DNA of 37,817 bases, taken from the NCBI RefSeq assembly GCF_006345805.1, contig NW_021835873.1:1-37817 (forward strand), read 5' to 3'. Below the pieces are notes generated by a model. The model saw only the letters and a list, made by a program, of their open reading frames with translations. It had not been told where the DNA came from and did no database searches. Below are positions 7,393-37,219 of this stretch, one piece after another (the stretch's first letter is position 1; each line of letters begins with the position of its first letter). Made by a program: the position numbers and the translations under genes. This stretch comes from Octopus sinensis. Its lineage: Eukaryota.

Positions 7393-7405
7393 CTACCCCC
7401 CTTCT
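7393..7405 (-). promoter_or_regulatory. Polypurine tract
   Basis: Minus strand agaaggggggtag directly before the TG of the 3' LTR. Confidence 0.9.
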
Positions 7406-7988: not shown

Positions 7989-10900
7989 TTAGGAAGATGG
8001 ATAAGTTAAGAGTTCGGAACTTACCCGAAAAACTTGCACGAACCTTGCTGGCCATCGAACTGTTCTTCCCGATTTGGTGTGTCGAGGTTGTGCAAAATCT
8101 GTGGTGTTTGCTGGAGTTGTTGAGTCTGTTCGAGGAAAGGAGGGAACTGCATGTAAGTCCTCCTCGAGGAAGGCTTCTTTTAAACGATCAATCGAGACTG
8201 TATTTCGTTTACCTCCAATATCGAGGACGAAATACTTGGGTTCTCTTTTGATAACCTTGTAGGGCCCGGAATATGGTGGTCGAAGTTGAGATGGTATCCC
8301 ATCATTCCTCACGAAAACATGAGTCCAAGTGTTGATATCTTTTGGGACACGTGAAACGACGTTCTGTTGTCTGGGGTCTGAAGGTGATAACTGCGACATG
8401 GATGTCCGTAATCGGTGCACATGTGGGTCAGGAAAGTCTTGTGAAACAGGTTCGATCATCTGCCCAGGTAAGGTGAATGCTGTGCCATAAACGAGTTCAG
8501 CCGGAGTATATCCCAGTTCTTCCTTAACCGTGGATCGAATTCCAAGGAGGATGAGAGGGAGATGTTCCAACCAGTGAGAACTGTCTGGAGCTGCTTTGAT
8601 AGATGCCTTGAGTTGGCGGTGAAAGCGTTCGACCATGCCATTTGCTGCAGGGTGGTAAGCTGTAGTGCGGGTGTGTTTACACCCGAGGAGACGAGTCAGC
8701 TCGGTGAAAAGGTGGGAATCGAACTGACGTCCTCTGTCGGTGGTGATGGTTGCGGGTGTGCCAAAACGCGAAACCCGTTGTGATATCAGCGTTTTGGCGC
8801 CCGTTTCTGCCGATGTATCAGATAAGGGCCAGGCTTCGGGCCATCGCGAAAAACGATCTACGCAGGTAAGCAAATATGTATAGTTCTGCGAAGGTGGCAG
8901 GGGTCCGATGATATCAATGTGAACGTGCTGAAATCGTGCGTCGGGTTGCGAAAATGAACCGATTGGTGATTTTATGTGCCGGTGGATTTTCGCTTTTTGG
9001 CACGCAACACCACTTGGTCCATTCTCTGATATCCTTGTTGATACTGGTCCACACAAAACGGGTCGATATCAGCTTTTGAGTGGAGCGAATACCAGGATGT
9101 GACAGAGAATGCAGAGCGGAGAAAACTTCCCGACGATGTTTCTGTGGTACATACGGGCGTTGGTAACCAGTGGAGATATCGCACCAAATATGGGCCGTAG
9201 ATGATGGTAGCGGAACATGCTGAAATTTCAGAGATGACGAATTCCGGAGCTTTAGAAGTTCTTCGTCATTCTCCTGGTCAGCTGCTATACGTGCCAGATC
9301 AATTGTAGACGTGGTGTGGATAGAATTGATGTGCGTGCGTGAAAGTGCATCGGCTGCTAAGTTGGTCGTCCCTTTGATGTGGCGTATATCCGTCGTGTAC
9401 TGCGATATGAAGTCGAGGTGGCGGATTTCTCTCGGCGAGTGGCGATCCGGTTTGGTGTTAAATGCATATACCAATGGCTTGTGGTCGGTGTATATGGCAA
9501 AATTGGTACCTTCTAGCATGTGACGGAAATGCTTAACGGCCACGTATGCCGCTAATAATTCCCGACTGAATGTGCTGTATTTGGTTTCCGCGGGTTTTAA
9601 CCGCTTAGAAAAGAAAGACAACGGTTGCCATATACCGTCAACAAGCTGCTGTAGTACACCTCCAACCCCGGAATCGGATGCATCAACGAGTAAACATCGT
9701 GGGGCGTCTGGTTTTGGATAAACCAACATGGTAGCGTTAGATAACGCTTTTTTCAGGGCAGCGAAAGAAGCGAGTTGATCTTCGGTCAGAGCTATATCTG
9801 CATTTTTGCAAGTTCGCTGACGTAGCAAATCCGTGAGCGGTTGCGCTATCTCAGCGAGGTGGGGTACGAACCGTCGATAGAAATTCGCTAGACCGAGATA
9901 TTCCCTTAATTTGCGGAGAGACGTGGGTGGTGGAAAATCCACGATGGCCTTGACTTTCTCGGGAAGGGGGCGAATTCCATCCTTATCGACGATGTGGCCT
10001 AGAAAATGAAGGGAAGCAACTCCGAACAAACATTTACTAGGATTGATAACAACACCGAATTTGCGAAGGCGTTCGAATAGCAGGTGAAGGTGTTGGTTAT
10101 GTTCTTCGTCCGAGTTACTGGCCACGAGTATGTCGTCTATGTAGGCATAGACGAAAGGCAAACCTCTAGTCAACATGTCGATAAACCTTTGGAATGTCTG
10201 TGCCGCGTTGCGTAAACCGAAAGGCATACGCAGGAATTCAAACATTCCGAAAGGTGTAGTAACTGCTGTCTTCGAGATGTCCGCAGGTTCCACTGGGATT
10301 TGGTTGTATGCTCGCACAAGGTCGATTTTGGAAAAGATGCGAGCTCGAAAAGTCTTGAAGGAAGGGCACTGGATAGGCATCACTAATAGTGCTTTTATTC
10401 AGCGATCGATAATCGCCGCAAACCTGCCAGTCGGTCGATGATTTTTTTTTTGGGACGCAGTGTATCGGCGAGGACCAGTTGCTGCTGGAAGGGCAGATGA
10501 TTCCGAAGTCGAGCATGTGCTGGAATTCCCTCTTGACGGCCTGGAGACGATCAGGTGGTAACCTTGTGGGCCTTGCAGCAACAGGTAGACCGCTGGTTTT
10601 GATGTGGTGGGTAACGTCGTGTTTGATCGGCTGGTTGTGGAATACTGGTCGAGCGACGTCCGGATATTCCTTCAGGATGGAACTGTGACGAGTCGTTGTT
10701 GTAAGCAATACAGTTGGGCTGACTGTGACCATACGAGCAGCTATACCGCGCACAGTAAGCTTGGTGGTGCTGTCGACAAGTCGTCTGTTCTTAATGTCTA
10801 CCAGGAGACCGAAATGATGCAGGAAATCGGCTCCTAAGATAGGGGTCGGCAGTTTAGCGACGACAAATACCCACTGAAATGTGCGGCGTAGTCCTAAGTT

Positions 10901-11123
10901 CAATGTTAGGGACTGTTCACCGTAGGTTGGGATGGGTGAATGGTTGACTGCCTGAAGACAGACTGGTGTCTGAAGTGTTGGAGACAGGGATGATGCTGAC
11001 TTCCGCACCGGTGTCAACCAGGAAACGCGTGCTTGTTACCCGATCGCAAACGAAAAACAGGCGACTGTGTGGGTGCGAGCCAGGAACTTCCGTCGCGTTC
11101 AATTCCTGGCTGTGCCGTTTCCC
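7989..11123 (-). pseudogene. pol: pol polyprotein (protease, RT, RNase H, integrase with GPY/F motif), several frameshifts
   Basis: FLVDTGAEVS (PR); [33 protein letters not shown] (RT); [21 protein letters not shown] (RNase H); [40 protein letters not shown] (INT). Confidence 0.95.
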
Positions 11124-11975
11124 GAACTAGATGAGGAAAACGAGTATGGTACCGTACATTTTTGTGCCCGTGTTCCGAATGTTTGGTGGCACCAACACGT
11201 GTCATGTGAGTTGCGGGTAACACTGGGGCTTCGGGACCGTCTGCCATCTCGTTGCGATCGGCTGGTGCTTCGACGCTGGGAACTAAGCTTTAGGGCCTGT
11301 ATTTGGGTTGTGAGGTTCTGTATTTGAGCAGCTTGCTGCGTCATTAATGCACGCAAGTCCGAAATCTCGGAAGAACTGGAAAGGATTGGTACTGGGAGCG
11401 GCTGGCGTCACCGTCGATACCGTTGGATATTTGTGCGGTACTTCGGCTATTTTGTCAGCTAGCTCCGCCAGTTCTTCAATGGATGTATTTTCTCTAGTAG
11501 AAGCGAGAACAACCTGGGTATTGGAGGGCAGACGCTGGAGAAAAAGCTGCTTGAAAATTTTTTCCGGGAGGCTCTCATCTCCGAGAAGCTGCTTCATTCT
11601 ACGAAGAAGTTGAGACGGCGTTTTGTCACCCAATTCTTCCGATATCAGAAGCTGGTGAAGTCGTTTCTGTTGCGATTCGGAGGTTCTGTTTATCAGAGTG
11701 GTTTTAAAAGTGTCGTATGATACAGAACCGGGTGGTGCCATGATAAGATCACGGACAACGTTTGTGATTTCTGGTGACAGAGAACCGATAACATGCGAAA
11801 GTCAAGACGCATCGCTCAGTATTCGGTGAGAGGAAAACTGTGCATCTATATGGTAAAACCATAATGCAGGGTCGTGGGTCCAGAATGGTGGAATTTTCAA
11901 AGAAATCGCCGCTTGGAATGCCATGTCGATCGGAGGTATGATGTTGGCCGCTGGATTCTGTTCCGGGAGGGCCAT
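11099..11975 (-). pseudogene. gag: gag with a CHCC-type nucleocapsid motif; one in-frame stop (11802-11804) and a frameshift near 11360
   Basis: MALPEQNP...LKIPPFWTHDPALWF...EELGDKTPSQLLRRM...LFLQRLP...LAELADKI...CWCHQTFGTRAQKCTVPY. Confidence 0.9.
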
Positions 11976-12080
11976 TGTGTACGTCGGAATTCTCAGGTGT
12001 TTCGTTGCCGGGTAATGTGCAAGCTGTAATTCTTCGACGCGGTTGATGAAGCTGGTTCCGGGGAAGGCGCAATTCGTTTG

Positions 12081-12092
12081 ACGGGGTCACCA
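12081..12092 (-). promoter_or_regulatory. Primer binding site complementary to the tRNA-Trp 3' end
   Basis: TGGTGACCCCGt two bases after the CA end of the 5' LTR. Confidence 0.88.
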
Positions 12093-12094
12093 AA

Positions 12095-12638
12095 TGTAGT
12101 GGGTGTGTATGTACGTAAATAAATACATAAACTGTTTCATGATTAAAAAGAGATTTATTTACAGGGTTATAAGTACACAACATACAAATGTAAGGAAGTG
12201 CTACGAATTGGTTGTATAGAACACATATTAAAGATGAATATGTTTGTGTGTGCGGGAATCATTCGAAACAGTAGTTGATAGATACTGTAGGCATTTCTCT
12301 CTGTCTGCCAAAACGCGGGGCGAGATAAATCTGTCTGCTGCTGTGTCCGCTGCGATTCTGTTTCTTTCTCTGTTTTTCCCTTGTATTTATAATATTTGAG
12401 ACAGCTAGAAAGACAGACATACTGCAACGGAGTTACTACCTAAGTAGGTCAGCACTTGTCCAGTTGAACTTCGCCTGACATGGCTTAGGTCGCAGGTCAA
12501 AGGGAGATGATCAATCACTTTTTGACAGAACAAAGATATCCTATTTTCGCGCCACTAAATGCATTGGTTTTTGACGACCGATGATTCTTGGATTCGATTT
12601 CGAATCTAGGCTTAGAGAAGGAAGTGCTAGTTCTTACA
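12095..12638 (-). repeat. 5' LTR (544 bp)
   Basis: Direct repeat of 6849-7392 with about 12 substitutions and two 2-bp indels by manual comparison. Confidence 0.97.
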
Positions 12639-12724
12639 ACTGTACCAATACAACTAATAACTGTTGGGAACACTTTCAAACCTGCGTTACATTTTAACCG
12701 GAATCTCAAAAACATTGTCCCCTT

Positions 12725-14272
12725 CAGCGCCAAGCTCAACTGCTCTATCCTGACATGGAGGGTATCAGCAATGAAATCTATAACAAAACACTCATTGACA
12801 TTGAAGACAGAATTGCTAAACTGGGTGGAAATGAATTGTCGACGTATGGCCTGCCACAAGCATTCAGGTCAGGGTCAAATAGCCTTCCCACTGCTGTCAT
12901 TCGTGAAACAACCTACGACACTCAAGCGCTTTCAAAGTACATTGTTGAAAATGAGCCTAAATTACTTCCGGACCAGCTTCAGGCCTACAGAACTATTCTT
13001 AATAGTGTACAGCAACGCGAGGGACGAATCTTCTTCCTCGATATTCCTGGAGGGACAGGAAAAACATTTATTACAAAGCTTCTCCTTTGCAGAAGTTAGG
13101 CAGCATCAGGACATTGCAGTAGCTGTAGCCTCCTCTGGTATTGCAGCTACTTTGTTACCTCTCAAATTAGCAGCATCCGAAATGCCTTCATGCAACATCA
13201 ACAAAAGCTCATATCAGGGACAAGTACTTAAAATGTGTCATCTAATTGTCTGGAATGAGTGCACTATGTCTCACAAGGGAGCTTTGGAAGCATTAGATAG
13301 AGCCCTGAAAGACATCCGAGACTGTCAGGCTCAAATGGGAGGTGTAACGCTTCAGTTGTCAGGTGATTTCAGGCAAACTCTTCCTGTCATTCCGAAAGGC
13401 ACTAGAGCAGATGAAGTCCAAGCATGCCTAAAGTCCTCTACCCTGTGGCATCATGTTACAATCCTCAGTCTCACCACTAACATGAAAGCTCAGCTACACG
13501 GCGACAAAATGTCCACAAAGTTTGCACAGGACATTTTGACACTTAGTGAAGGCAAGATGCCTCTCGGTGCTGCAGAACTAATGGAAGTGTGGTAATTTTC
13601 CTCTGTTGTTAATTCTGTAGATGACTTCAAAAACAAAGTCTTTCCCAACTTCACACACAACTACCAAAATTACAATTGGCTGTGTGAAAGAGCAATATTA
13701 GATCCAAAAAACGCCGCTGTTAACAAAATTAATCAACAGCTAATGCATTCTCTTCCCGGTACTATACACACTTACAAGTCTGTTGATACAATTCCAGACA
13801 TAAATGAAGTTGTGAACTATCCTCCTGAATTTCTCAATTCACTGGAGCCTCCTGGACTACCTCCACACATATTAGCACTTAAAGTTGGAACTCCTGTAAT
13901 GCTACTCCGCAATCTGGAACCACCAAGACTTTGCAATGGAACACGACTGGTGATAAAGAAAATGATGTCACACGTTATCGATGTGGAAACGGTGATGACG
14001 TCTTTATTCCAAGATTTCCTCTTACTCCATCAGGAGCAGAAATTCCATTTACATTCAGAAGACTGCAATTCCCCCTCCGTGTCAGCTTTGCCATGTCCAT
14101 TAACAAATCTCAGGGTCAAACCCTCTCTGTAGCTGGTCTTCTCTTGGAAGAGCCCTGCTTCTCGCATGGGCAACTGTATGTTGGCTGCTCAAGAGTAGGA
14201 ACGAAAAGAAACCTTTTTGTATATGCTCCACAAGGAAAAACAAGGAACATTGTTTACAACGAGGTGTTATAA
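12725..14272 (+). pseudogene. Helitron RepHel C-terminal PIF1 helicase, frameshifted; Rep/HUH domain absent
   Basis: FFLDIPGGTGKTF (Walker A), VASSGIAATLL, IVWNECTM, GDFRQTLPV, GLPPHILALKVG, CNGTRL, RLQFPLRVSFAMSINKSQGQTL, FSHGQLYVGCSRV, TRNIVYNEVL. Confidence 0.95.
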
Positions 14273-14670: not shown

Positions 14671-14737
14671 CACTTGGTAGACACCCAGGACAACAAAGAA
14701 GATTCAAGTGAGAAACCTGCCCGGGAAGTAAACCCAA

Positions 14738-15230
14738 GTGCAAGTGCCCCTACCAGCACCAAAAGCCCAAACAATGGAGATGAAAGAGCCAAAAAAAGAA
14801 GTAAAAGGAGGAAAAACTAAAAGAAAAACAAGAGATGAAACAGCCAAGGATAGAAGCAAACCTGACTATCCATATACCAAAAAGGATAGAAAGAGACAAC
14901 GCACACGAATGTGTAAATTCTACCTGAAAGGTGTCTGCTGGCATGGAGAGGAAGGTGCAGGCTGCCGTTTTGCACACCAAAGACCCTGCCACATAAACAT
15001 GAAACAGGACAGAAACCAACTACCAAAAGGAAAAGGAATGGACTACGCACCACCTGCCCCAAAACGGAGGTACGCAGATGTAGTCCGTGCTACACCAAAA
15101 TGTTATTGAAAGAGCAGCTGCTGAACAAGAATCTTTTTTGTGCATGGCACAAAAGATTGTACAGCAGCTAACCTGGCTCCATCAAACTCAAACTCGCAGA
15201 TGGGACTATCCACAATACAAGACCGCCACA
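14738..15230 (+). pseudogene. LINE ORF1 remnant with CCCH-type zinc finger
   Basis: Lys-rich stretch then CKFYLKGVCWHGEEGAGCRFAH (Cx7Cx8Cx3H), directly upstream of ORF2. Confidence 0.7.
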
Positions 15231-15281
15231 GCAAATAGACCCAAGGTGGACACCACCGGCAACAGCACACTCAACACCTCG

Positions 15282-18200
15282 ATGCTCCTAGTGGACATCA
15301 GAGGACTGTTAACACTCAGTAACAGGACAAAAATCCCTTTCTTGAGAGACCTTGTTACATGCAATCAAGCCTTATGCATAGCACTTACGGAAACACACCT
15401 GAAACCGGACATAGCAGATGCGGAAATACACATATCACAGTATGTTGTACTACGGACCGACAGAAAAGAAAGGAGTCATGTTGGAGTTGCTATGTACATC
15501 TGCGAGGACCTCACACCCCAGGTCCTTTTGTCATACTCAAATTCGGTGTATGACACACTACTTGTACATATAAGGCAACTTGGTGTAGTTATATGTGCTA
15601 CATATCACCCTCCAGATGATCCAAGCCATGTAGGCAAGTTTGAAGACTGCCTTATAAAAATAGAAGTTCTAGTCACATTAAAACAACACATAAGTGTACT
15701 TCTTATGGGAGACTTCAATCTGCCCAATGTCAGATGGCCCGAGGGCCTTACTCTCCCAGGAATGACAAGATGCGAACGAGGACGGGCGAGGTCCCTCCTG
15801 AACCTCATCAACACTTTGTACATGGAGCAAATACTCCAACCAGCCAGGGCAGGTAACATACTGGATCTCTGCTTCACAAATAATATGGATCGCATCCATA
15901 ATGTGAAAGTGACACCGACACTACTCTCGGATCACAACATGGTACAGTTGACTATGTACGGGCCAAAGGAAAGCATGGACATGCAGTCTACAAGAAACTC
16001 TCAGAATCTTTCCAGCTTGAACCTCCATAAGGCAAACTGGAAACAAATTGAGAAAGAGATTTTCAAACAAAACTGGCCTGTAATGCAAGCCATCTGCTAC
16101 AAATGTGTCCCAGAGAGAAAGGCCACTGTACACAAGAACAAAATCCCCAGAGAGAGGAAAATTCTTATGAGACGGCGTACAAAAGTTTCAAATCGCCTAA
16201 ACAAACAAATTGAAAGCAGTGAAAGCCTGAAAATAAAACTGTTGGAAATTGAAAAATGTCTGCAACTCTCCCATGAAAAAGAAAGAGCAGACAAAGAAGC
16301 CTGGGCTATAGACAACATAAAATCTAACCCCAGAGCTTTCTACAAGTTTGCCAAAGAAACAGCTACGGTGCACTGTAGGATAGGGCCACTCCTCGAAAAG
16401 GATGGTACTCTCACAGGAAATGCAATGAAGATAAGTGAAATACCAAATGAGCAATTCAAGAGTATTTTCACTCCACCCCTAGGGCATTTTCAAGTCAGCA
16501 ATACAACTGACTTCTTTACCACCGCAGATATAAAATCAGAGGCAGCGATGATTGATTACATCAATATAAAGGAAGACGATGTAATAAAGGCTATCGATGA
16601 AATGAACCCAAACTCAGCTACTGGCCCGATGGATTCCCAGCAATCCTTCTAAAAGTATGTAAGAGAGTCCTAGCAAGACCACTGCTTTTCCTCTTTCAGA
16701 GCTTCCTTGCAACTGGCAAACTTCCAAGAAAACTGAAGGAAGGTAAAATATGCCCTATTCATAAAGGAGGTAGCAGAGCGGAGGCCAAGAACTTCAGACC
16801 TATCTCTCTGACCTCACACATCAGCAAGGTCATGGAACAAATAGTCAGAAGGAAACTAATCGCCTTCTTGAAGAAAATAACTTGCTGTCTGACACCCAAT
16901 ATGGTTTCCGACCAGGAAGAAGCTGCCTAACTCAGCTCCTACAACACTGTGTCTGGGTACTGAAATGACTGCCCAACCACTCAAATGTGGAAGTGATATA
17001 TCTCGACTTTGCAAAGGCCTTTGATAAACTCGATCATGGAATGATATGTCACAAACTGCGTGATCTTGGCATAGTTGGAAAATTGGGAGAATGGCTTCAT
17101 GACTTTCTGAAGGATAGAAGTCAGGTGGTCGTAGCCAATGGGGCCACTTCCATTAACACACAAATAGTGAGCGGTGTTCCGCAAGGCACTGTTTTGGGAC
17201 CACTACTGTTCATAATGGCCCTCTCGGACATGCCCTCAGCCACGCAGAGAGCCACGGTCACAAGTTATGCAGACGATACAAAAGTTTCACAGATAATACA
17301 GAACCTTGAAGACACTATGCACCTGCAATGTGAGCTGGACAAAATATACAAGTGGGCTGAAAAGAATAGCATGCAGTTCAATGCTGAAAAATTTCAAGCT
17401 TTATGCTATCAGCATGAAAAACTAAATGCAATACCCAATAAATACACTGGACCTGGAGGGATTGCGATCCCAGAGGCACAATCAGTGCGAGACCTGGGTA
17501 TTTACATGAGTAATGATGCAACCTTTCATGTGCATGTTGCTAAATTGGCAATGGAATGTAGGCGGCTGACCTGATGGATTCTTAGAGCCTTTAGAACAAG
17601 AGACCAGGAATCCATCGGGCCAGTAGCTGAATTTGGGTTCATTTCATCTCTAGCCTTTATTACATCGTCTTCCCTTATATTGATGTAATCAATCATCGCT
17701 GCCTCTGATTTTATATCTGCGGTGGTAAAGAAGTCAGTTGTATTGCTGACTTGAAAATGCCCTAGGGGTGGAGTGAAAATACTCTTGAATTGCTCATGAT
17801 GGTCCTCTGGAGGACACTTGTCCTAAGCCACTTTGACTATTGCTCTCAGCTATGGTCACCATCCAGTGTCAAGTTAATCACAGAAGTTGAGGCGATCCAA
17901 CGAAGCTACACGAAGAAGGTAGCCTTTGTGCAGCATATAAGCTATTGGGAAAGACTCAAGAGATTAAGACTCTATTCCTTAGAGCGTAGGCGAGAAAGAT
18001 ATGCCATAATATACATCTGGAAGATCCTAGAAGGACTTGTCCCAAACTTTGGCATCGAGAGTTACACAAATACTAGAACAAGGCGCCACTCCATAATGCC
18101 AAGGACTCCAAATTTGCCATCAAGATGTAGGACAAGATACTGTGATAGCCTGGATTTCAGAGGCCCACAGCTCTTCTATATCCTCCCGAAGGACCTGAGA

Positions 18201-18350
18201 GACCTGCATGGGGTGGATGCAGATGTCTTTTAAATAAAACTGGATCTTTTCCTTTCAGGTGTCCCAGATGAACCAACTTCAGGTGCAGATGAGGGCGGCT
18301 GCATCGAACTCTCTCATGCACCAAATGGCAATTGCTAAAAAGCATTCGTG
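15282..18350 (+). pseudogene. LINE ORF2: AP-type endonuclease and reverse transcriptase, disrupted
   Basis: IALTETHL, YHPP, MGDFNLP, ILDLCFTN, SDHN (APE); YLDFAKAFD, GVPQGTVLGPLLF, YADDTK, LYSLERRRERY (RT); several stops and frameshifts. Confidence 0.93.
17616..17797 (-). repeat. 182-bp inverted duplication of 16447-16628 inserted within the same LINE
   Basis: Reverse complement of the upstream segment (about 4 mismatches); absent from the sister copy, which reads ggaatccat|gatggtcc at about 36570. Confidence 0.95.
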
Positions 18351-18444
18351 AAGTAAAATCAGGTAGCAACGCCGAATGGTGGTGCCCCAGCATGGCCACA
18401 GCTCGTGAGCTGAAACTAGATAAAATAAAAAAAAATTTTTTTAA

Positions 18445-21400
18445 TATAATTATGTATATCCTCTGACGAGGCCTTTGCTAGATCAGCTGGTTATGAAGAA
18501 CTCAATATACTTCTAGCCATCGCTCATCGTCTCTTTTCAACCAAATCCAGTGGCTAGCCTTCTCCACTGTAGATTGGATATCAGTCATGGTGGTATTGAC
18601 TTTACGATGAGTTAGGCCAAACGATAACAATAGTCGTCTCACGCTGTGTCCTACAAACCCTCTACATCCGACTTCGATAGGAAAATGTTCCGCTTTCCAG
18701 CCTGCGTCTTCACATTCCTCGAGGAGGTTTTCATAACGGTTTAATTTTCGAGCTCGAGTGGCGTCCATATTATCTTCGTGAGGAACCGTTAGCTCGACTA
18801 TATTTACAACTTTCTTTCTTTCACACCACATCAAAATATCTGGGTTTTTTCGAAACTGGGATGGGAAAGAAAACCTGGCACCCAGGTAAATCTGCAGTTA
18901 CCTCCCAATAGCCGTTCCACTTTTCATTTTTCTCAGGAAGTTTCTTGGTCTTCTTCTTGAAACGGATCTGCTGACCTGGTCGCACGAAGGTAATGAACTC
19001 TCTTGATGGTACTTTTAACGATTTTTCCTCAGTGTTGTTGAGATGAATTTGGTTCTTTATAGCATTGAAGATAACCTTAAGGACCAAGTTGTGCCTCCAT
19101 GTGTACCTGTTCAATGCTAATGAACAGTTGGAAAGAATATGTTTTAGTGTACCGATCTTTCCACATTTGCAGATGTCATTCTCTAAGACGTTCCATCTTA
19201 CTATATTCGTAGGTGATGGAAAAACATCATAAGATGAACGAATCAGGAAACTCAGCCGAGATGTCGTCCACTTCCACATCTCATCCCAACTTATCTTCCT
19301 CTCAACAACATGTTCTTCCCATCTCGTCATCTGACCTTGATGAACACATCGGATCAAATGAAGCTCTCTTCTCTCTGCTTCTCTTGTTTTGACGCTGTTG
19401 CTAACAACAGATCTGCGTTCACACGGCATCATGCTTGCAAACGGTCTGAACTGATCTGCGCCAAAACCAAATCCTTTCCGATGGTTCTGCGTTGCTCCCA
19501 CCATATCTCTGTGTATAAGAGAAGACAAGATGTTGTCAGTTTCTGCTTCTGCTTTCCACTTCCTGGCTGTTTTCACCTCTGGTGGGTTACGCCTGATTTC
19601 CATATCCTTCGATTCTCTCAGCATCATAACCGTCCGTATCTTCCCCAACTTATATTTTTCGACTATTGATGCTATTGGTAACTGCAACGAACCTCTTTTA
19701 CGATAAAGAGCTGAGCTGTTCAACATACGAGGTAGACCTAGCCACTTTCTAATGAACACATTACATTTTTGTTCAACCTTTTCAACTCGTGACAATGCTA
19801 CTTCGTATATTAAAAGTGGCCACGCAAGTCGCGGGTACAAGCCGAACTGCAAGCACCAAATTTTATATTTACCTGGTAACTTCGAAACATCAATCGCTGA
19901 TAACCCAGCCTCGGCCTGTTTCATAATTTCAATCCCACGACTGTTGGAATGCTTTCTTCAGATATTCGAAATTTAAATTCTTTCTGCACTCCCTTAACAA
20001 ATGTCAGACTACGCGACTTTTTTGCTCTAAATCGCATCCTTGACCACCTTACAAGTTCGTCTAATCTCAAAAGGGCATTCTGCATGATTTGTTTATCTGT
20101 AGCTAGAAGTGTCACGTCATCCATGAAGGCTTTCTTAGGCGATTGTACATGGGCGATTTGTTCCGAAAAATCTACACCTTTCAAAATCAACTCCATCACT
20201 AAGATAAACCACGTGACAGATATTGTACAGCCAGCAGCAATGCCAACCTCCAATCGGTGCCAATTTGTTGTAAAATTTCCAGTTGTAAACCTCATTTCGA
20301 AACTGTCATAGTACATCCTCATTATTTTGATCACTTTGTCAGGAATGTGGAAGTGGTCCATGGCTGTTATTAGTAAGTTCAGACTTTTCTTGTTCTGTTT
20401 GGCATCCTGGATCGCTTTCCAAATCGAAAAACAGTGTTCAACGCATCCAGGGATCCCGGGGATTCCGGCCTTTTGAACAGATTCATCAACATATCCGTTA
20501 CTCTGTAAATATGCCACTGTTCTCCTCGACAGAATTCCCATAAAGATCTTGCCTTTCACATTCAATAAGGATATCGGCCTAAACTGTTTTATGGTCTTTG
20601 CATTGGCCTCTTTCGGCAGGTATATACCTTCTGCCTTACACCAATCCTCTACTATAGTCTCCTCGCGTCACAGTTGTCGGATTAGGACGAAGAGCTTCTT
20701 TCGCAGACGATTGCAGTACTTGTAGACTTTACATGAGACGCCATCACCTCCTGGGGCACTCTTTGCTCTAGCTTTTCTTACGAAGTCATTCACCTCTCTC
20801 TCCCTGATGTCCCTAATCTGGAATTCGATATCAGGTCCTGAGAGATGATTTAACCCATGTAGAGGTGGCAGCGGCTGGTTACGGTGCGGATCGCTGTAGG
20901 TTTCCTTGATATGAGCATCCAATTCTTCTTTAGTGCACGATAAAGTACCACTCTTCGGTTCAGTGAACAGCTTCTTAGTAAACCCGTACGGGTCCTTCAG
21001 AAACTGCCCCCGAGTCCTTTTACTTTCTTTTCGACGCTCATATCGGCGGATATGTCGTTGCACATAACGACATTTCCTCTTCAAATCGTTATACAGCAAC
21101 GCAAGGCCAGGTTTCTCATCTAGTGCAGCACATCTCCATCGCTTTCTTAAGTCGGACTTTTCCTTCCTCAACTGCTGCATTTTTCTGATCCTCCTGCTTG
21201 GTCCACACTTTCCTTTCTCTAGTCGGATATTCTCTTTTATTCCAAATAAATCTTTTCCTATATCGTATATTGAGCTTGATAATTTTCCCAGTTTCTCCAC
21301 TGTAGAGCCTGTCATTTTATAAAGAGCCCCACAAACCATGTTTTCAAACTCTTTATATTTCACTTTCTCATTAGCAGCAGGCCACAAAACCCTCGGTTTC

Positions 21401-21960
21401 CTCTGAGTATTATCCGATGCACCAGTTTCATGACTTGTAGTTTCATCACGTGAAGAGTTCTCTGCTGTAGCATTTATCGATCCGCTGTGGTTTGAGTCCG
21501 GGGATGATTTGCCACGTGTTTTACGATCTGACGATCCACACTGCTCTGTCCTCTTCTCACAAGTCTTTCCCTGATGTATCTTCAAGCCTCTCTCAGTTGC
21601 AAAGGTTCTATAGCACAGCTTGCATCCAAAGTTGTTTGCATTTCGTTCGCTGTTCGAATGAATAATCATGTTCGTTTCCAAATAGTACTTAGCGCATCCA
21701 CCCACACGCAAGGGCTATATCCAAGTATCCAGAACATTCAGTCCGAATTACAAATCCGGGTAAGGTCCATTCCACAAAATATAAGCCCGTTATATGTATA
21801 TTAGATTTCACAGTGTTTACATTCCTATTGTATGGATATTAAAGTATATATCCGCAAAATCAAATAAATTTAGTTTAAAAAAAAAAAGATAGTAGCAACT
21901 AAGTTAAGTTGCTACTATCCCAGTTAAGTTAAGTCCAAGGTTAGCGTTGAAGTACGGATA
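18445..21960 (-). mobile_element. Hero-like (R2/NeSL group) non-LTR retrotransposon with restriction-like endonuclease, near full length, defective
   Basis: Single long ORF split into four pieces; the 5' boundary is approximate. Confidence 0.85.
18502..21711 (-). pseudogene. Hero-like ORF: N-terminal zinc finger, RT, CCHC knuckle, RLE nuclease
   Basis: CKLCYRTFATERGLKIHQGKTC; SAPGGDG; FRPISLLNV; GIAAGCTIS; KAFMDDVT; CKCGKIGTLKHILSNC; IVELTVPHE...PIEVGCRGF. In-frame stop at 20668, loss of the RT DxxxA(Y/F) motif, and frameshifts. Confidence 0.9.
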
Positions 21961-24735: not shown

Positions 24736-25045
24736 TATAATCCTACATACTAACAGACCAGTACAAACATCACCTATACAAAAGTTTACTGAAGTCCATA
24801 TATAATATCTAATATACAAGAAGATAACATAAATAATACTTAAAACTATCACATGCATGTACACAAATAGACATACATGAAAATGCGAAAAATATAAATA
24901 AATAAATATAAAAATAAAATATAAATATACATATACACATGCATCCACACATATGTAAATCTATTAGTGATCACAATGTTTAGTATGTTGACTCATATAA
25001 CCATATACTGAGAACCCATATTGAATACTTAATAAACATAAGCAG

Positions 25046-26008
25046 ATGGTTGTGGACGATGGAGCCACCTCCAGGATGGCACAGGTGGCAGGCGGTGTTC
25101 CGCAGGGCGCTGTCTTGTGGCCACTGCTGTTCGTGGTGGCCCTTTCGGACATGCCCTCAGTTGCTGGGATGGCCGCCCTTGCTGGCTGTACGGATGGCAC
25201 AGGGGTCTCCCACGCAGTGCAGGACCCTGGAGGTGTTGCGCGTCTGCAGCGGGAGTTGGATACAGTGTGCGAGTGGGCTTAGGATGGCAGCATGCAGTTT
25301 GATGCAGGTGGGTTCCAGGCCCTGCGCTGCCGGTGCACAGGGGTGGGCGACATGCGGGCTGGATGCACTGGCCCGGGTGGACTTGTGGTCCCTCAGTCGG
25401 GGTTGGTGCGTGATCTGGGCGTTGGCATGGGCGGTGATGATCTGGTGATGGAGTGCGGACGGCTGGCTGGATGGGTTCTCCGGGCTTTCGGAGCGGTGGT
25501 GGGGGTGAGACACTGATGGTCCTGTGGAAAACTTTCGTCCTCGGCCGCTTGGGCTGCTGCTCCCAGCTGTGGTCGCCGCACAGTGTGGAACTGACAGCGG
25601 GGCTCGGGGCAATTCGAGGAAGCTACATAGGGGGGATCGTCTCGGTGCCACATGTCGGCTGCTGGGAAAGACTGAGTGTTGGGACTCTTCTCCCTGGAGC
25701 GAGGGCGGGAGAGATGGGCTGTGATGTGCATCTGGAGGGTCTTGTCCCAGACTTTGGCATTCAGGGTTGCCTGAGAGACTTACATGGTGTGGATGTGGGT
25801 TTCTTTGAGGCTAAACTGGATCTCTTCTTGTCGGGGGTCCCAGGTGAGCCTGCCTCGCGGCGGGGGAGGTGGATGCGGGTGGCGGCATTGGGCTCCCTTG
25901 TTGACCGGGTGCCACGTATCGGGGTGGATTCACATATTGGTGTAGCTCATTCGGCAGTGGTGCCCCAGCATGGCCGCAGCCTTCGGGCTGAAACATTTTT
26001 AAGGATTT
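25046..26008 (+). mobile_element. 5'-truncated LINE copy B2 with massive A-to-G hypermutation
   Basis: Aligns to 29754-30808 (GVPQG..., CSQLWSPHS, 3' tail), but most substitutions are A to G (e.g. YADDTKV becomes CTDGTGV). Confidence 0.93.
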
Positions 26009-26140
26009 ATAAAGGTAAATAATGAACAAGTACCAGAATATAAAAATTACAAATATGTACATACAGAAAAACAGCATAATACTAAAGACCACCACATGCA
26101 TTCATGCAAATAAACCTACATGAACAAATAAATATATGTA

Positions 26141-26241
<101 letters not shown>

Positions 26242-26493
26242 CTATACTCATGTATCCACACACACACTGATCCAATAGTGATCACCATATGTTTAGTACA
26301 CTGACTCATACTATGTACAAAACAATATACTGAAATCCAAAACTGAATGCATATCAATATACATAAAAAGACCAATTGAAATCCAAAAGTAAATACATAT
26401 CAATATACATAAAAATAAAATTAAGGCCAGTATAAAAATACAGATATGCACAAAAAAATGTATAATATATGTGTGTATATATATAAATTTATA

Positions 26494-27084: not shown

Positions 27085-27461
27085 TAAATATTAGGGAATA
27101 AATCCAAATTTACAGGGAAAAAATCAGATTTAGGATTAAATCGATTTTATAGTAAAATATTATAAAATATTATTCGAGACAAAACCACTATTTTGCAAAA
27201 CAAACAAGGAAAGACTTAATTAATACATAAAATTTTAATAAATAGTCAAAAAAACCGCCACTACAATCGTTTCTTGTCTTGATCGACAATCTTCATAATT
27301 TGACACTGAATTATTGGAAGTCCACCTGAAGATTGTCGATCAAGACAAGAAACGATTGTAGTGGCGGTTTTTTTGACTATTTATTAAAATTTTATGTATT
27401 AATTAAGTCTTTCCTTGTTTGTTTTGCAAAATAGTGGTTTTGTCTCGAATAATATTTTATA
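27085..27461. mobile_element. Penelope-like element pseudo-LTR remnant forming a perfect inverted repeat
   Basis: Arms 27161-27295 and 27327-27461 (135 bp each) with a 31-bp spacer; contains a hammerhead motif. Confidence 0.75.
27322..27364 (+). ncRNA. Minimal type I hammerhead ribozyme motif
   Basis: ccac CTGAAGA ttgtc-gatcaa-gacaa GAAA c-gatt-g TA gtgg: all core nucleotides present, stems I, II and III pair. Confidence 0.8.
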
Positions 27462-27938: not shown

Positions 27939-30808
27939 TTGCAACCATGCAATCAAGCTATATGCATGGCACTCATAGAAACGCATCTTGGACCTGATAT
28001 AGGGGATGCAGAAATAAACACACTGCAATATGTTGTCATACGCTCACATAGAAAAGGAAGGAGTCATGGTGGAGTTGTAGTGTACATCCGAGATGACCTC
28101 ATACTCCAGGTCCTGTTGTCATATTCAAACTCATTGTGTGACACTCAAATTGTACACATAAGGCAACTGAATATCGTCATATGTACTACATATCGCCCAC
28201 CGGATATCCCAAATCACACAGGCATGTTTGAAGACTGCCTAACAAAAATAGGAGAAGTTCTCACCAACCTGGAACAACACAACAGTGTAATCTTCATGGG
28301 TGACTTTAACTTCCCCATTGTGGAATGGTCTGGGGGGCAGATGCTTCCAGGGATGACACACCATCAGCAGGCACAGACAGAGTCCCTGCTCCATCTCACA
28401 AATGCCTCTTTCATGGAGCAAATAGTGCTGCAACCAACAAGGGCAGATAATATACTGGATCTCTGCTTCACAAACAATATGGATATTATCCATAATGTTA
28501 AAGTGATGCTGATAATGATCTTGGATCACAACATAATAAAGCTGTCTATGTATGGACCAAAAGCCCCCGCAGACACAAGCCTATACGAAGCATCCACAAT
28601 CTCTCCAACTTAAACTTCATAAAGCAAATTGGAAATTGATTGAGAAAGAGATCCTCAAACAGGATTGGCCTAAAAGTCTCTCCACACCAAACATTGACAT
28701 GAAACAAGCGTTTCATGTCCATAATACAAGCCATATGTGACAAATATGTCCCAGTGTGCAAGGCCAGCACACACATAAACAAAAATAGGATCCCTAGAGA
28801 AAGGAAGATTCTTATGAGACGACGGACAAGGATTGCGAACCGCTTGAGCAAACACCAAAAGTGGTGAGAAGACTCGGCTCGAAAGTCTGCATCAGTCTAA
28901 TGAAAAGGAGAGAGCAGATAAAGAAGCTTGGGTAATAGAAAATATAAAGTCAAACCTTAAAGCTATCTTGAAGTTTGCCAAAGAGACAGCCACAGTGCAC
29001 CAGAGAATAGGACCTCTCTTCCAAAAAGATGGCTCCCTTACAGGAAATCCCACGAGGATAAGTGAAATATTGAACGAACAGTTCCAAAGTGTGTTCACTA
29101 CACCTCTAGGACACAGGCAAGTAAACAACCCAGAAGAATTCTTTGCCACTTTACCTGCGGCCAAAGAGGCAAAAATTGAGTACATCAACATTGAAGATGA
29201 TGATATCACACTGGCCATAGATGAGATTGACACAAACTCAGCTGCTGGACCTGATGGATTTCCAGCGATCCTTCTCAAATAGTGCAAACAAGCCCTTGCA
29301 AAACCGCTACAGCTTCTTTTGCAGAGCTTTCTTGCAAGTGGTAAGCTCCCAGTCAAATTGAAGGAGGGGGTAATATGCCCTATCCATAAGTGAGGAAGCA
29401 GAGCAGATGCTAAAAATTATAGGCCTATCTCTCTGACCTCACACATCAGCAAAGTCATGGAACGAATAGTCCGTAAGAAACTAATCATGTTCCTTGAAGA
29501 AAATGACTTGCTGCCTGAGACCCAGCATGAATTTCGACCAGGTAGAAGCTGCCTAACACAGCTCCTGCAACACTATGACTGGGTGTTGAAACAGCTACTA
29601 AATGGCTCAGGTGTGGATGTGGTGTGTCTCGACTTTGCAATGGCCTTTGATAGGGTCGACCATGGTATGATATGTCAAAAACTGCGTGGTCTCGGCATAG
29701 GCGGAAAACTTGGAGAGTGGCTGCACAACTTCCTAAAAGATAGAAAAAAGGCAGTTGTAAGCAATGGAGCCACCTCCAAGGAAACACAAATTAGAAGTGG
29801 TGTCCCGCAGGGCACTGTCTTGGGGCCACTGCTGTTCATAGTGGCCCTTTCAGATATGCCCTCAGTTGTTACGATGGCCACCCTTGCTAGCTATGCAGAT
29901 GACACAAAAGTCTCCCACTCAATACAAAACTCTGGAAATATTGCACATCTGCAAGAGGAGTTAGATACAATATACAGGTGGTCTGAGGACAACAACATGC
30001 AATTTAATGCAGGTAAGTTCCAGGCCCTGAACTACTGGCACACAAAGGTAAACGACATGCAGACTGGATCCACTGGCCCAGGAAGAATTGTAATTAATGA
30101 GTCAAAATCAGTGTGTGACCTGGGCATTGACATGAGCAATGATGCATCTTTCCAAGTGAATATTACTAATTTAGTGATAAAATGCAGACAGCTAGCTGCA
30201 GAACAAGAGAGAAGGAGACACTGGTGGTCCTTTGGAAAACTTTCATCCTCGGCCGCTTGGACTACTGCTCCCAACTATGGTCACCGCACAGTATAAAGCT
30301 AACAGCAGAACTCGAAGCAATTCAAAGAAGCTACACTAAGAAGATCGTCTCAATGCAACATATCAACTACTGGGAAAGACTGCATGTATTAAAACACTTC
30401 TCCCTGGAGCGAAGGCGGGAGAGATGTGCAGTGACATACATCTGGAAAATCCTGGAGAGTCTTGTCCCAAACTTTGGCATTCAAAGTGACCCCAACCGCA
30501 GAACGAGGCACCACTGCATGGTGCCAAAATTCCAACATCGCCACCAAAATACAGGACCAGATACTGCAACAGCTTGGGTTTCAGAGGACCACAGCTCTTT
30601 AACATCCTCCCTAAATGCCTGAGAGACTTGCATGGTGTGGATGTGGGTTTCTTTAAAACTAATCTGGATCTCTTCTTGTCGGGGGTCCCAGATGAACCTA
30701 CCTCACGACAGGAGACACAGATGCGGGCAGCGGCATCAAAATCCTTTGTTGACAAAGTGCCACTTATCAGAGGTGGATTCACATATTAGTGTAGATTTAA
30801 GGATTTAT
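27939..30808 (+). mobile_element. LINE copy B1 (same family, second subfamily): ORF2 APE-RT, disrupted
   Basis: MALIETHL, GGVVVY, YRPP, MGDFNFP, ILDLCFTN, SAAGPDGF, YRPISLTS, GVPQGTVLGPLLF, YADDTKV; ends ttaaggattta. Confidence 0.93.
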
Positions 30809-33665: not shown

Positions 33666-34131
33666 CACATATATATATACATATATATATATATATAATA
33701 AAATATTAGGGAGTAAATCCAAACTTACGGGGGAAAATTAGATTTAGGATTAAATCTAATTTTTTAGTATAAATATATTTTATATTAACTGAGAGATAAA
33801 ACCACTATTAGGCAAATCAAACAGTGAAAATCATAAGCCAATACATAGAAATAAAATCAATTAAAAAATATAAAAAATATAAAATATATAATATAAAAAT
33901 CGAATTAAAATATTTAAATTAAAGTTAAATTTTTTTAAAATTATTTAAATTAATAAATTAAACTTATATATTTTATATATATATATATATATATTTTTTT
34001 ATTATTATTTTATTTATTTTTTTTATAAATTTTAAACTATCAAAAAGTATTAAAAGTTAAATATAAGATAAAGAGTAAAAGCACTTTATCTTATATTAAA
34101 CTTTTAATACTTTTTGATAGTTTAAAATTAA

Positions 34132-34410: not shown

Positions 34411-34573
34411 TGTATATATTTAAAATTTATAAGTTTAATTTATTAATTTAAATAACTTTTTAAAATTTTAACTTAAATTTAACTTATTTAAATATTTAAT
34501 TCAATCTATGTATTGGCTTATGATTTTCACTGTTTGATTTGCCTAATAGTGGTTTTATCTTTAATTTAATATG

Positions 34574-34984: not shown

Positions 34985-37215
34985 TGAGAGACCTTGTTGC
35001 ATGCAATCAAGCCTTATGCATAGCACTTACGGAAACACACCTGAAACCGGATATAGCAAATGCGGAAATACACATACCACAGTATGTTGTATTATGGCCC
35101 GACAGAAAACAAAGCAGTCATGGTGGAGTTGCTATGTACACCCCCGAGGACCTCACACCCCAGGTCCTTTTTTCATACTCAAATTCGGTATGTGAGACAG
35201 CGTACAAAAGATTCAAATCACCTAAACAAACAAATTGAAAACTGTGAAAAGTCCCACCTGAAAATAAAACTGCTAGAAATTGAAAAATGTCTGCAACTCT
35301 CACATGAAAAAGAAAGAGCAGACAAAGAAGCCTGGGCTACAGACAACATAAAATCTAACCCCAGAGCTTTCTACAAATTTGCCAAAGAAACAGCTACAGT
35401 GCACTATAGGATGTAGCCACTCCTTGAAAAGGATGGTACATTCACAGGAAATGCAATGAGGCTAAGTGAAATACTAAATGAGCAATTCAAGAGTATTTTC
35501 ACTCCACCCATTTTCAAGTCAGCAATCCAACTGACTTCTTTACCACCGCAGATCTAAAATCACAGGCAACGATGATTGATTACATCAATATAAAGGAAGA
35601 CGATGTAATAAAGGCTATAGATGAAATGAAAACAAACTCAGCTACTGGCCCGATGGATTCCCAGCAATCCTTCTAAAAGTATGTAAGAGAGTCCTAGCAA
35701 GTCCACTGCAGTTCCTCTTTCAGAGCTTCCTTGCAACAGGCAAGTTTCCAAGACAACTGAAGGAGGCCAAGAACTACAGACCTATCTCTCTTTACCTCAC
35801 ACATCAGCAAGGTCATGGAGCGAATAGTCAGAAGGAAACTAATCGCCTTCTTGAAGAAAATAACTTGCTGTCTGACACCCAACATGGTTTCTGACCAGGA
35901 AGAAGCTGCCTAACTCAGCTCCTATAACACTATGACTGGGTGCTGAAATGACTGCTCAACCACTCAAATGTGGAAGTGATATATCTCGACTTCGCAAAGG
36001 CCTTTGATAAAGTCGATCATGGAATGATATGTCACAAACTGCATGATCTTGGCATAGTTGGAAAATTGGGAGAATGGCTTCATGACTTTCTGAAGGATAG
36101 AAGTCAGGTGGTCCGTTAACACAACAAATAGTGAGCGGCGTTCTGCAAGGCACTGTTTTGGGACCACTACTGTTCATAATGGCCCTCTCAGACATGCCCT
36201 CAGCCAAGCAGAGAGCCACGATTACAAGTTATGCAGATGATACAAAAGTTTCACAGGTAATACAGAACCCTGAAGACACTATGCACTTACAATGTGAGCT
36301 GGACAAAATATACAAGTGGGCCGAAAAGAATAGCATGCAGTTCAATACTGAAAAGTTTCAAGATTTATGCTATCAGCATGAAAAACTAAATGCAATACCC
36401 AATAAATACACTGGACCTGGAGGGATTGTAATCCCAGAGGCACAATCAGTGCGAGACCTGGGTATTTACATGAGTAATGATGCAACCTTTCATGTGCATG
36501 TTGCTAAATTGGCAATGAAATGTAAGCGGCTGACCTGATGGATTCTTAGAGCCTTTAGAACAAGAGACCAGGAATCCATGATGGTCCTCTGAAGGACACT
36601 TGTCCTAAGCCACTTTGACTATTGCTCTCAGCTGTGGTCACCATCCAGTGTCAAGTTAATCACAGAAAATGAGGTGATCCAATGAAGCTACACGAAGAAG
36701 GTAGCCTCTGTGCAGCATATAAGCTATTGGGAAAGACTCAAGAGATTAAGACTCTATTCCTTAGAGCGTAGGTGAGAAAGATATGCCATAATATACATCT
36801 GGAAGATCCTGGAAGGACTTGTCCCAAACTTTGGCATCGAGCGTTACACAAATAATAGAACAAGGCGCCACTGCATAGTGCCAAGGACTCCAAATTTGCC
36901 ATCAAGATGTAGGACAAGATACTGTGATAGCCTGGATTTCAGAGGCCCACAGCTCTTCAATATCCTCCCGAAGGACCTGAGAGACCTGCATGGGGTGGAT
37001 GCAGATGTCTTTAAAATAAAACTGGATTTCTTCCTGTCAGGTGTCCCAGATGAACCAACTTCAGAGCAGGAGGTGCAGATGAGAGCAGCTTCATCGAACT
37101 CTTCCATGCACCAAATGGCAATTGCTAAAAAGCATTCGTGAAGTAAAATCAGTAGCAACATGGAATGGCGGTGCCCCAGCATGGCCACAGCTTGTGAGCT
37201 GAAACTAGATAAAAT

Positions 37216-37219
<4 letters not shown>
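34985..37219 (+). mobile_element. LINE copy A2: 5'-truncated, internally deleted, close relative of copy A1
   Basis: Highly similar to 15342-18430; about 620-bp deletion at about 35195 and smaller deletions at about 35762 and 36110; same 3' tail. Confidence 0.93.

What the first reader, a model, noticed from the sequence alone, without database searches (positions are those of the whole stretch)
25046..26008. Genomic LINE copy that looks like a fossilised A-to-I hyper-edited RNA
Seen: aligned by eye to its sister copy (25102-25325 vs 29808-30030), about 36 of roughly 48 substitutions in ~220 bp are A to G on the element's sense strand, and the pattern continues to the 3' end. Examples: gatgacacaaaagtc>gatggcacaggggtc, ggaaatattgcacat>ggaggtgttgcgcgt, acaatatac>acagtgtgc, ggtaagttc>ggtgggttc. 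Changed As mostly follow T or A, while As after G are mostly kept. Copies A1 and A2 have A at most of these sites, so G is the derived state. Established: ADAR deaminates A to inosine in dsRNA with a 5' U>A>C>G preference, RT reads inosine as G, and coleoid cephalopods edit RNA very heavily. APOBEC DNA editing would give G-to-A instead. Inference: a hyper-edited LINE transcript was retrotransposed in the germline, writing RNA editing into DNA and producing a dead-on-arrival, GC-shifted copy. This could be an ADAR-based anti-retrotransposon or mutagenic route. I cannot tell from the sequence whether this has been reported for this lineage.
Basis: partly seen in the sequence, partly recalled or inferred. 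Interest (0 to 1): 0.92.

Follow-up and report, generated by a model that had tools for sequence, protein, structure and literature searches.

The report
RNA-edited retrotransposon copy fixed in DNA
One truncated jumping-gene copy in an octopus genome has half of its A letters changed to G on one strand only, the scar expected if its RNA was heavily edited by the enzyme ADAR before being copied back into inheritable DNA, a route long assumed but, as far as the papers I could search go, not shown.

Summary
Confirmed. Window 25049-26009 is a single-copy, 5'-truncated LINE (APE-RT family, at least 1,224 copies). Against the family majority, 141 of 271 A are G, 0 of 212 T are C, and 25 other bases differ. 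Conversion follows the 5' neighbour (T 80%, A 68%, C 42%, G 30%; p=5e-8), as ADAR does; ordinary copies show no such bias. The A-rich flanks are unconverted and the last 68 nt nearly spared. Contigs from four studies' runs carry the G-rich 5' half with its junction, so it is genomic. The genome's ADAR2 exon is identical to Octopus vulgaris ADAR2. A second, very young copy (41 A>G, 3 other differences in 928 bp) and two weaker ones lie elsewhere; three mirror T>C screens found none. Best reading (0.85): ADAR hyper-edited double-stranded LINE RNA was reverse-transcribed into the germline. The source duplex was not found and no edited RNA was seen. The event is rare (roughly 0.1-1% of copies), and a defence role is not shown. 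Closest known: APOBEC G>A-edited LTR elements and ADAR A>G avian retroviruses. I found no paper showing ADAR-edited LINE copies fixed in a genome, but two key papers were unavailable.

The parts
25049..26009 (+). A>G hyper-converted, 5'-truncated LINE copy (RT C-terminal part, ORF end, 3' UTR, tail); the 5' end may reach back to about 25040
   Evidence: unique in the genome; 5' half and both junctions seen in public run contigs
25049..25941 (+). converted tract: 140 of 253 family A read as G, at 60%, 54% and 45% in three successive segments
25187..25198 (+). remnant of the RT catalytic motif: family YADD reads CTDG here (two A>G changes and one G>A change alter residues)
   Evidence: translation as it stands; family ORF
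25439..25768 (+). three internal deletions relative to the family (24 bp near 25440, 10 bp near 25732, 129 bp near 25764); none of the long deletions found in other fetched copies is at the 129-bp position
25942..26009 (+). 3'-terminal 68 nt and TAAGGATT-type tail, almost unconverted (1 of 13 A)
24760..25040 (.). 5' flank: A-rich (49% A, 8% G) old degenerate repeat, similar to the 3' flank; not converted; no clear target-site duplication
26010..26420 (.). 3' flank: A-rich (53% A over the first 110 bases), not converted
27946..30790 (+). unedited sister copy of the same family (APE endonuclease and RT remnants), same orientation; used as bait, not the parent
15084..18430 (+). copy A1 of a related LINE family (about 71% to the sister copy), unedited outgroup
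34985..37219 (+). copy A2 of the related family, unedited outgroup

Best explanation
The copy is the DNA fossil of an ADAR hyper-edited RNA. Step 1 (inferred): a transcript holding the 3' kilobase of this LINE formed a long duplex, most likely by folding back on an inverted family copy in the same read-through transcript at some other locus. Step 2 (signature shown, enzyme inferred): ADAR deaminated about half of the adenosines to inosine with its usual 5'-neighbour preference, leaving the 3'-terminal 68 nt almost untouched. Step 3 (established chemistry, inferred here): LINE reverse transcriptase supplied by an intact copy primed on the 3' tail, put C opposite inosine and stopped after about 1.1 kb, giving a 5'-truncated insertion that reads A>G on the sense strand. 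Step 4 (shown): it entered the germline and spread; it is present in runs of four studies with allelic differences. Step 5 (shown statistically): new CpGs made by the edits later decayed, so the edits came first. The copy has no likely function. The route is recurrent but rare, and is best read as leakage of edited RNA into retrotransposition rather than a demonstrated defence.
For: One change type on one strand: 141 of 271 A>G vs 0 of 212 T>C. 5' order T>A>C>G matches ADAR1/2 on long dsRNA, where the 5' neighbour dominates and U and A are preferred (PMC3113232, Results part 1); G depletion upstream is shared across metazoans, octopus has the strongest hyper-editing signal and a weakened 3' G preference (PMC5625713, passages), in line with the weak 3' trend here. 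No codon-position bias (32 of 44, 20 of 42, 19 of 33). Flanks stay A-rich. 6 of 38 new CpGs carry C>T vs 2 of 163 other C (p=7e-4), and ordinary copies show 3.5-fold CpG decay; two runs have G at 25337, a CpA in the window. Independent repeat: L032/L002 differs from its nearest sister by 41 A>G and 3 other changes in 928 bp, tract 5' A 17 of 39 and T 5 of 17 vs C 5 of 40 and G 7 of 31. Weaker repeats: L109 in the related family, 25 of 153 A>G vs 1 of 103 T>C; L033, 15 private A>G vs 1 T>C. Mirror T>C screens: 0, 1 (no cluster on inspection) and 0 hits. ADAR2 catalytic exon with an open frame, identical to Octopus vulgaris ADAR2. A family fold-back substrate exists: L044, a head-to-head pair with about 1.1-kb arms 92% identical. 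ADAR substrates are mostly intramolecular (PMC13445718, abstract).
Against: No source duplex was found: L044 is not the parent (60 non-A>G differences in 568-710 columns), the nearest fetched copy differs at 7.6% of columns even ignoring A>G, and the window holds no inverted partner of the converted tract. No edited RNA was observed. No clear target-site duplication. 30% of A after G are converted, a weaker avoidance than the 6-8% upstream G reported for edited RNA traces (PMC2873906; a different measure), though saturation could explain it. The 3' neighbour trend is not significant. Between copies the strand asymmetry rests on few cases (2 clear, 2 probable, 1 mild vs 0), and the DNA searches with the edited copy favour A>G copies. 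In human cell culture ADAR1 did not edit L1 RNA detectably (PMC5224506).
Confidence: 0.85

Rival explanations
1. Same RNA editing, different write-back: an edited cDNA overwrote an existing copy in place (RT-mediated gene conversion) instead of making a new insertion.
For: No clear target-site duplication. In L032 the edits sit in bounded tracts, with about 500 unedited bases 5' of them.
Against: In the window copy conversion starts at the 5' truncation point and runs evenly for about 900 bases, as expected of a new 5'-truncated insertion; bounded tracts are also what a partial duplex gives. Unedited copies of this family sit in (TA)n repeats where duplications cannot be read.
Confidence: 0.06
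2. Deamination of DNA rather than RNA: ADAR acting on the sense DNA strand in a hybrid with antisense RNA, or an unknown single-strand DNA adenine deaminase acting on the second strand during integration.
For: ADARs can deaminate dA in DNA:RNA hybrids in model substrates (PMC12925331, passage). An element-derived antisense RNA would also confine changes to the element.
Against: The hybrid that exists during retrotransposition has the cDNA (minus) strand as its DNA, which would give sense T>C: 0 of 212 and none in three screens. The reported DNA activity needs mismatches or hyperactive mutants. Half-conversion of one DNA strand would have to escape inosine repair (recalled).
Confidence: 0.04
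3. Reverse-transcriptase hypermutation: a skewed dNTP pool made RT put C opposite A throughout one insertion event.
For: Would also be strand-specific, confined to the element and rare. A runs are heavily converted (AAA 18 of 29).
Against: Pool-bias hypermutation is known to go through G:T/U wobble pairs and so gives G>A or T>C, not A>G (recalled, no call). It does not predict the T>A>C>G 5' order, the bounded tracts in L032, or the spared 3' end.
Confidence: 0.03
4. A separate G-rich subfamily, selection, or GC-biased gene conversion.
For: GC rises to about 60% against 45% in the sister copy.
Against: No other copy above 76% identity over the main body among 40 scored of 3,782 and 40 of 986 candidates; three G-motif screens return no twin; the window copy and L032 share no more sites than context explains (p=0.11); the catalytic motif is destroyed; biased conversion would raise T>C equally (0 of 212).
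Confidence: 0.01
5. Assembly artefact from RNA-based polishing or base-calling.
For: The window is a whole unplaced 37.8-kb contig; the middle third of the copy was not spanned by a listed run contig.
Against: Contigs from 4 of 4 runs of four studies and two organism labels carry the G-rich sequence with its non-element flank, two of them with allelic differences; CpG decay on top of the edits; the second copy lies on a 174-Mb scaffold.
Confidence: 0.01

Closest known systems
APOBEC 'DNA-edited' retroelements fixed in vertebrate genomes (Knisbacher and Levanon, PMC4866542; passages)
   Same: A deaminase burst during retrotransposition is frozen into one genomic copy as a strand-specific cluster with a sequence context.
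   Different: There G>A from C-to-U on cDNA of LTR elements in vertebrates; other mismatch types were called very rare and invertebrates devoid of signal, and only LTR elements and DNA transposons were screened. Here A>G, ADAR context, non-LTR element, invertebrate, and the modified molecule is most likely RNA.
ADAR A-to-G hyper-edited avian retroviruses, RAV-1 and ALV (Felder 1994; Hajjar and Linial 1995; known to me only through PMC12925331 and PMC8586724, passages)
   Same: A>G at nearly 50% of adenosines in a reverse-transcribed element, attributed to ADAR on an inverted-repeat duplex.
   Different: Exogenous retroviruses; short U3 or inverted-repeat regions; the passages do not describe germline-fixed copies. 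Here about 900 bases of a LINE, inherited and polymorphic in a species.
ADAR hyper-edited repeat RNA in metazoan transcriptomes (Porath et al., PMC5625713; passages)
   Same: Dense A>G clusters, upstream G depleted, repeats as substrate; octopus has the strongest signal.
   Different: Those clusters are RNA-versus-genome mismatches; here the cluster is in the genome itself.
ADAR1 restriction of human L1 (PMC5224506; passages)
   Same: ADAR meets LINE RNA.
   Different: That restriction was editing-independent and no edits were found in more than 2.5 kb of L1 RNA; this copy shows editing reaching integrated DNA.
APE-type non-LTR retrotransposons of the CR1/L2/Jockey group (group name recalled)
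   Same: APE endonuclease plus RT, 5'-truncated copies, short tandem 3' tail; nearest atlas clusters are named after transposon BS RT.
   Different: Clade not placed on a tree here; not compared with the RTE-clade octopus element of PMC9115989.

Membership tests
ADAR hyper-edited sequence | dense cluster of A>G on one strand, other changes at background | tested here: met
   141 of 271 A>G, 0 of 212 T>C, 25 others in 932 columns
ADAR hyper-edited sequence | 5' neighbour U, A preferred over C, G | tested here: met
   T 32 of 40, A 57 of 84, C 34 of 81, G 18 of 61, p=5.5e-8; reference PMC3113232; no bias in ordinary copies
ADAR hyper-edited sequence | 3' neighbour preference (G, weaker in octopus) | tested here: inconclusive
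   G 62%, A 54%, C 54%, T 41%, p=0.11
ADAR hyper-edited sequence | a long double-stranded substrate covering the cluster | tested here: inconclusive
   no partner in the window; an inverted family pair exists elsewhere but is not the parent; source locus not found among 91 fetched loci
ADAR hyper-edited sequence | an ADAR gene in the organism | tested here: met
   PF02137 matches; exon identical to Octopus vulgaris ADAR2 over 160 aa
ADAR hyper-edited sequence | inosine in the RNA intermediate, or loss of the signature without ADAR | not testable with these tools
   no stranded raw RNA reads available; experiment needed
APOBEC DNA-edited retroelement | G>A cluster on the sense strand | tested here: not met
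   4 of 227 G>A
APOBEC DNA-edited retroelement | LTR element or endogenous retrovirus of a vertebrate | tested here: not met
   APE-RT non-LTR family in an Octopus
APE-type non-LTR retrotransposon (LINE) insertion | family encodes APE endonuclease and RT | tested here: met
   PF14529 and PF00078 in the sister copy
APE-type non-LTR retrotransposon (LINE) insertion | intact 3' end with tail, 5' truncation | tested here: met
   3' end and tail align with the family; 5' end stops inside RT
APE-type non-LTR retrotransposon (LINE) insertion | target-site duplication | tested here: inconclusive
   none clear
CR1/L2/Jockey group | placement on an RT tree with reference clades | not tested
   only automatic atlas names

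The most novel reading that the evidence does not exclude
ADAR hyper-edited fold-back LINE transcripts are recurrently written into the germline genome, forming an undescribed class of insertions: an RNA-editing counterpart of APOBEC DNA editing, present in at least two octopus LINE families and at different ages, with the RT-recognised 3' end spared by selection for priming. Such copies would be a datable fossil record of germline ADAR activity and specificity, probably findable across animals.
Probability: 0.5. Interest if true: 0.85.

Novelty: new variant of a known kind. Interest (0 to 1): 0.72.

Why it matters
[quoted passage not shown] This copy, with a second very young one, is direct sequence evidence that heavily inosine-substituted LINE RNA can be a template for integration in the germline: RNA editing becomes heritable DNA change, about 140 substitutions in one step. 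It makes the question testable by a plain genome screen (sense A>G against T>C clusters by element class), shows ADAR acting on LINE RNA in germline or early embryonic cells of an animal known for neural editing, gives ADAR context from single fossil molecules, and warns that such copies distort repeat ages and subfamily calls. Its rarity limits the effect on the genome as a whole.

Tried and rejected
Self-BLAST without masking was swamped by (TA)n (redone masked). Apparent T>C or A>G excess in several copies (L007, L017, L010, L023, L028) came from misaligned microsatellite flanks and vanished when positions were listed. The first G-motif screen found nothing, but it also missed the window copy, whose first base differs, so it counts only as a weak negative. 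L096 (mirror hit) has no T>C cluster; L095 has only 5 A>G vs 3 other changes in 1,171 bp and is left as mild. A first tabulation of L109 mixed several neighbouring copies and was redone on one segment with five relatives. L044 rejected as parent. Folding the unedited sister 3' kilobase alone gave no long hairpin (no shuffle control at that length). No target-site duplication found. Denominators were counted for one motif only. Literature: 10 full-text searches listed no paper on ADAR-edited LINE or SINE copies fixed in a genome; Hajjar and Linial 1995 and Carmi et al. 2011 were not held; passages of PMC5974252, PMC12599553, PMC7186786 and PMC2873906 did not describe it. No supplements were read; those of PMC4866542, which tabulate other mismatch types, may bear on novelty.

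Full report
What was checked. The window is the whole of contig C12344 of a 2.72-Gb genome. The stretch 25049-26009 stands out at about 60% GC with G over C and T over A, between flanks of 21-26% GC. It aligns to the 3' part of three LINE copies in the window; the nearest, at 27946-30790, carries APE endonuclease and RT remnants.

The substitution spectrum. I polarised changes against the column majority of other family copies fetched from the genome: 30 loci, of which the window's own locus and four partial or rearranged ones (L005, L014, L022, L026) were left out and the window's sister added, 26 rows. Over 932 columns with at least 70% agreement: 141 of 271 A>G, 0 of 212 T>C, 4 of 227 G>A, 9 of 222 C>T, 25 non-A>G in all (2.7%). 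Conversion depends on the family's 5' base: T 32 of 40, A 57 of 84, C 34 of 81, G 18 of 61 (p=5.5e-8). The 3' base shows a non-significant trend (G 62%, A 54%, C 54%, T 41%; p=0.11). Codon positions are hit alike (32 of 44, 20 of 42, 19 of 33), and the RT motif YADD now reads CTDG. In ordinary copies A>G is 0.5-0.6% after every base; 74 background segments totalling 134,755 bases hold 226 private A>G and 157 T>C, near the A:T ratio of the strand. Conversion is 60%, 54% and 45% in three successive segments but 1 of 13 in the last 68 bases (p=0.0009). The flanks remain 49-53% A.

Order of events. Six of the nine C>T changes sit where a family CA has become CG: 6 of 38 such new CpGs against 2 of 163 other C (p=7e-4). 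Ordinary copies lose C at CpG 3.5 times faster than elsewhere (5.9% vs 1.7%), so the simplest reading is edit first, CpG decay later. This holds although methylation of octopus transposons is reported to be low (PMC9476566, passages). The same decay on the other strand would turn some edits back, so the rate after C is probably underestimated; two runs indeed read G at 25337 where the window has CA.

Is it in DNA? Sixteen of 24 listed runs hold words of the stretch, six at half or more. Contigs of four runs from four studies and two organism labels were laid: each has one piece from 24950 to 25527-25552, across the 5' junction and about 80 converted sites, with 0, 4, 0 and 2 other letters and no gap; one piece crosses the 3' junction unchanged. 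One run may be the assembly's source and the DNA label is the tool's guess, but a non-element flank, allelic differences and two organism labels make an RNA-polishing artefact untenable. The middle third was not spanned by a listed piece.

Is it alone? No other copy exceeds 76% identity over the body (40 scored of 3,782 candidates; 40 of 986). An unedited 25-mer of the family occurs 1,224 times within two mismatches. Motif screens requiring several G at A positions returned: the window only, the window only, the window plus two loci, and in the related family one locus; an earlier, stricter one returned nothing and missed the window copy too. Mirror screens for T>C returned 0, 1 and 0, and the one hit has no cluster. 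The clearest second case is L032 (= L002; G000:C3 near 135.518 Mb): 41 A>G and 3 other differences from its nearest sister in 928 bases, 34 of them in one 330-base tract, favouring 5' A and T over C and G, none in the last 160 aligned bases. It is very young and shares no more sites with the window copy than chance and context allow (p=0.11), so it is an independent event. L109 (C2710, related family) has 25 of 153 A>G, 1 of 103 T>C, 7 of 115 G>A against five relatives. L033 (C11092) has 15 private A>G, 1 T>C, 8 G>A (p=0.003 before correcting for 79 segments tested). L095 is mild (5 vs 3). So there are two clear, two probable and one mild case against none on the other strand. My rough inference is about 1 in 1,000 copies for conversion along the whole length and up to about 1% for short tracts; only one denominator was measured and tract-limited copies are seen only where a motif falls in the tract.

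Mechanism. Shown: change type, strand, context, confinement to the element, genomic presence, precedence over CpG decay, recurrence, an ADAR gene. Established: ADAR1 and ADAR2 on long dsRNA depend most on the 5' neighbour and prefer U and A over C and G (PMC3113232, abstract and Results part 1); inosine is read as G in reverse transcription (PMC5224506, passage); octopus has the strongest hyper-editing and many potential long duplexes, with a reduced downstream-G preference (PMC5625713, passages); ADAR substrates are mostly intramolecular, sense-antisense duplexes rarely edited (PMC13445718, abstract). Inferred: the duplex was a fold-back at another locus. Such loci exist: L044 is a head-to-head pair of family copies with arms of about 1.1 kb at 92% identity, predicted to pair 92% of 2,511 bases, though it is not the parent. 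A read-through RNA of that shape ends in a sense copy with the normal tail. The spared 3' end, seen in the window copy and L032, fits either an unpaired or protein-bound end or selection for an end that RT still recognises; this is inference from two or three cases. Deamination of the cDNA in the RT hybrid would give the opposite strand (T>C) and is excluded for this copy. Rivals and their odds are listed separately; together I give them 0.15.

Defence or leak? The copy lost its catalytic motif, but it is 5'-truncated like most fetched copies and was dead in any case. With more than 99% of copies unedited at the screened motifs, mutation of integrated copies is not a large brake. Edited RNAs might mostly be retained or destroyed so that only escapees are seen; the sequence cannot tell. 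I therefore call it leakage of edited RNA into retrotransposition, with defence open.

Comparison with what is known. It works like APOBEC DNA editing of LTR elements (a deaminase burst frozen in one copy) but fails that family's tests: the change is A>G, the element non-LTR, the host an invertebrate; that screen covered LTR elements and DNA transposons, called other mismatch types very rare and invertebrates devoid of signal (PMC4866542, passages). It works like the ADAR-hyperedited avian retroviruses with nearly 50% A>G (PMC12925331 and PMC8586724, passages), which were exogenous viruses. A 2016 review lists ADAR mutation of retroelements as undetermined (PMC4982230, passage). Ten full-text searches (listings only, except the papers named) showed no report of ADAR-edited LINE copies fixed in a genome. 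The library lacks most subscription papers, two directly relevant ones were not held, and no supplements were read, so absence from print is not established. Two unchecked notes of this scan report the same signature in L1 copies of other genomes; they are leads, not support, and suggest the route is not special to cephalopods.

Verdict. Observation confirmed and extended; ADAR-edited RNA retrotransposed into the germline at 0.85; a new variant of a known kind; interest 0.72.

Noticed in passing
L032 (= L002, L093); G000:C3 about 135,518,117-135,519,567: Very young family copy with 41 A>G and only 3 other differences from its nearest sister in 928 bp; the best target for finding the parent duplex.
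   Followed up: yes
L044:761-3271 (G000:C20 about 2,029,200-2,031,700): Head-to-head inverted pair of family copies, arms about 1.1 kb at 92% identity with a short spacer; would form a very long hairpin if read through.
   Followed up: partly
L109:1456-2040 (G000:C2710) and L033:427-2083 (G000:C11092): Probable older or lighter A>G tracts, one in the related LINE family.
   Followed up: partly
window 17607-17797 and 16447-16637: Copy A1 has a 191-bp inverted duplicate of its own upstream sequence (98% identical) in place of part of the RT C-terminus: a built-in duplex about 970 bases apart. A1 shows no A>G excess against A2 in the two segments compared.
   Followed up: partly
L032:930-1007 and 2520-2600; L033:400-425 and 2135-2190: Copies of this family often sit inside (TA)n microsatellites at both ends, suggesting (TA)n targeting; the window copy does not.
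   Followed up: no
window 6871-12638, minus strand: LTR retrotransposon with two direct repeats of about 520 bp at 95% identity and RT, RNase H and integrase matches in separate frames; Ty3/gypsy-like domain order (recalled).
   Followed up: no
window 12585-14272 and 3779-4330: PIF1 helicase fragments, probably Helitron remnants.
   Followed up: no
window 18500-21714, minus strand: A different, broken non-LTR RT element (RVT_1 match).
   Followed up: no
window 14732-15109: Short ORF with a Cys/His-rich motif just upstream of copy A1's endonuclease (Torus match below cut-off); possible ORF1 remnant.
   Followed up: no
window 27165-27457: A 293-bp near-perfect palindrome (94%), with partial relatives at 33701-33941 and 34416-34572.
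   Followed up: no
L098 (C2502), L103/L104/L107 (C12622), L100 (C8702): Deaminase-domain (PF02137) matches with internal stops; the C2502 and C12622 loci are 98-99% identical and the first covers the whole domain in one stretch, like a retrocopy.
   Followed up: no
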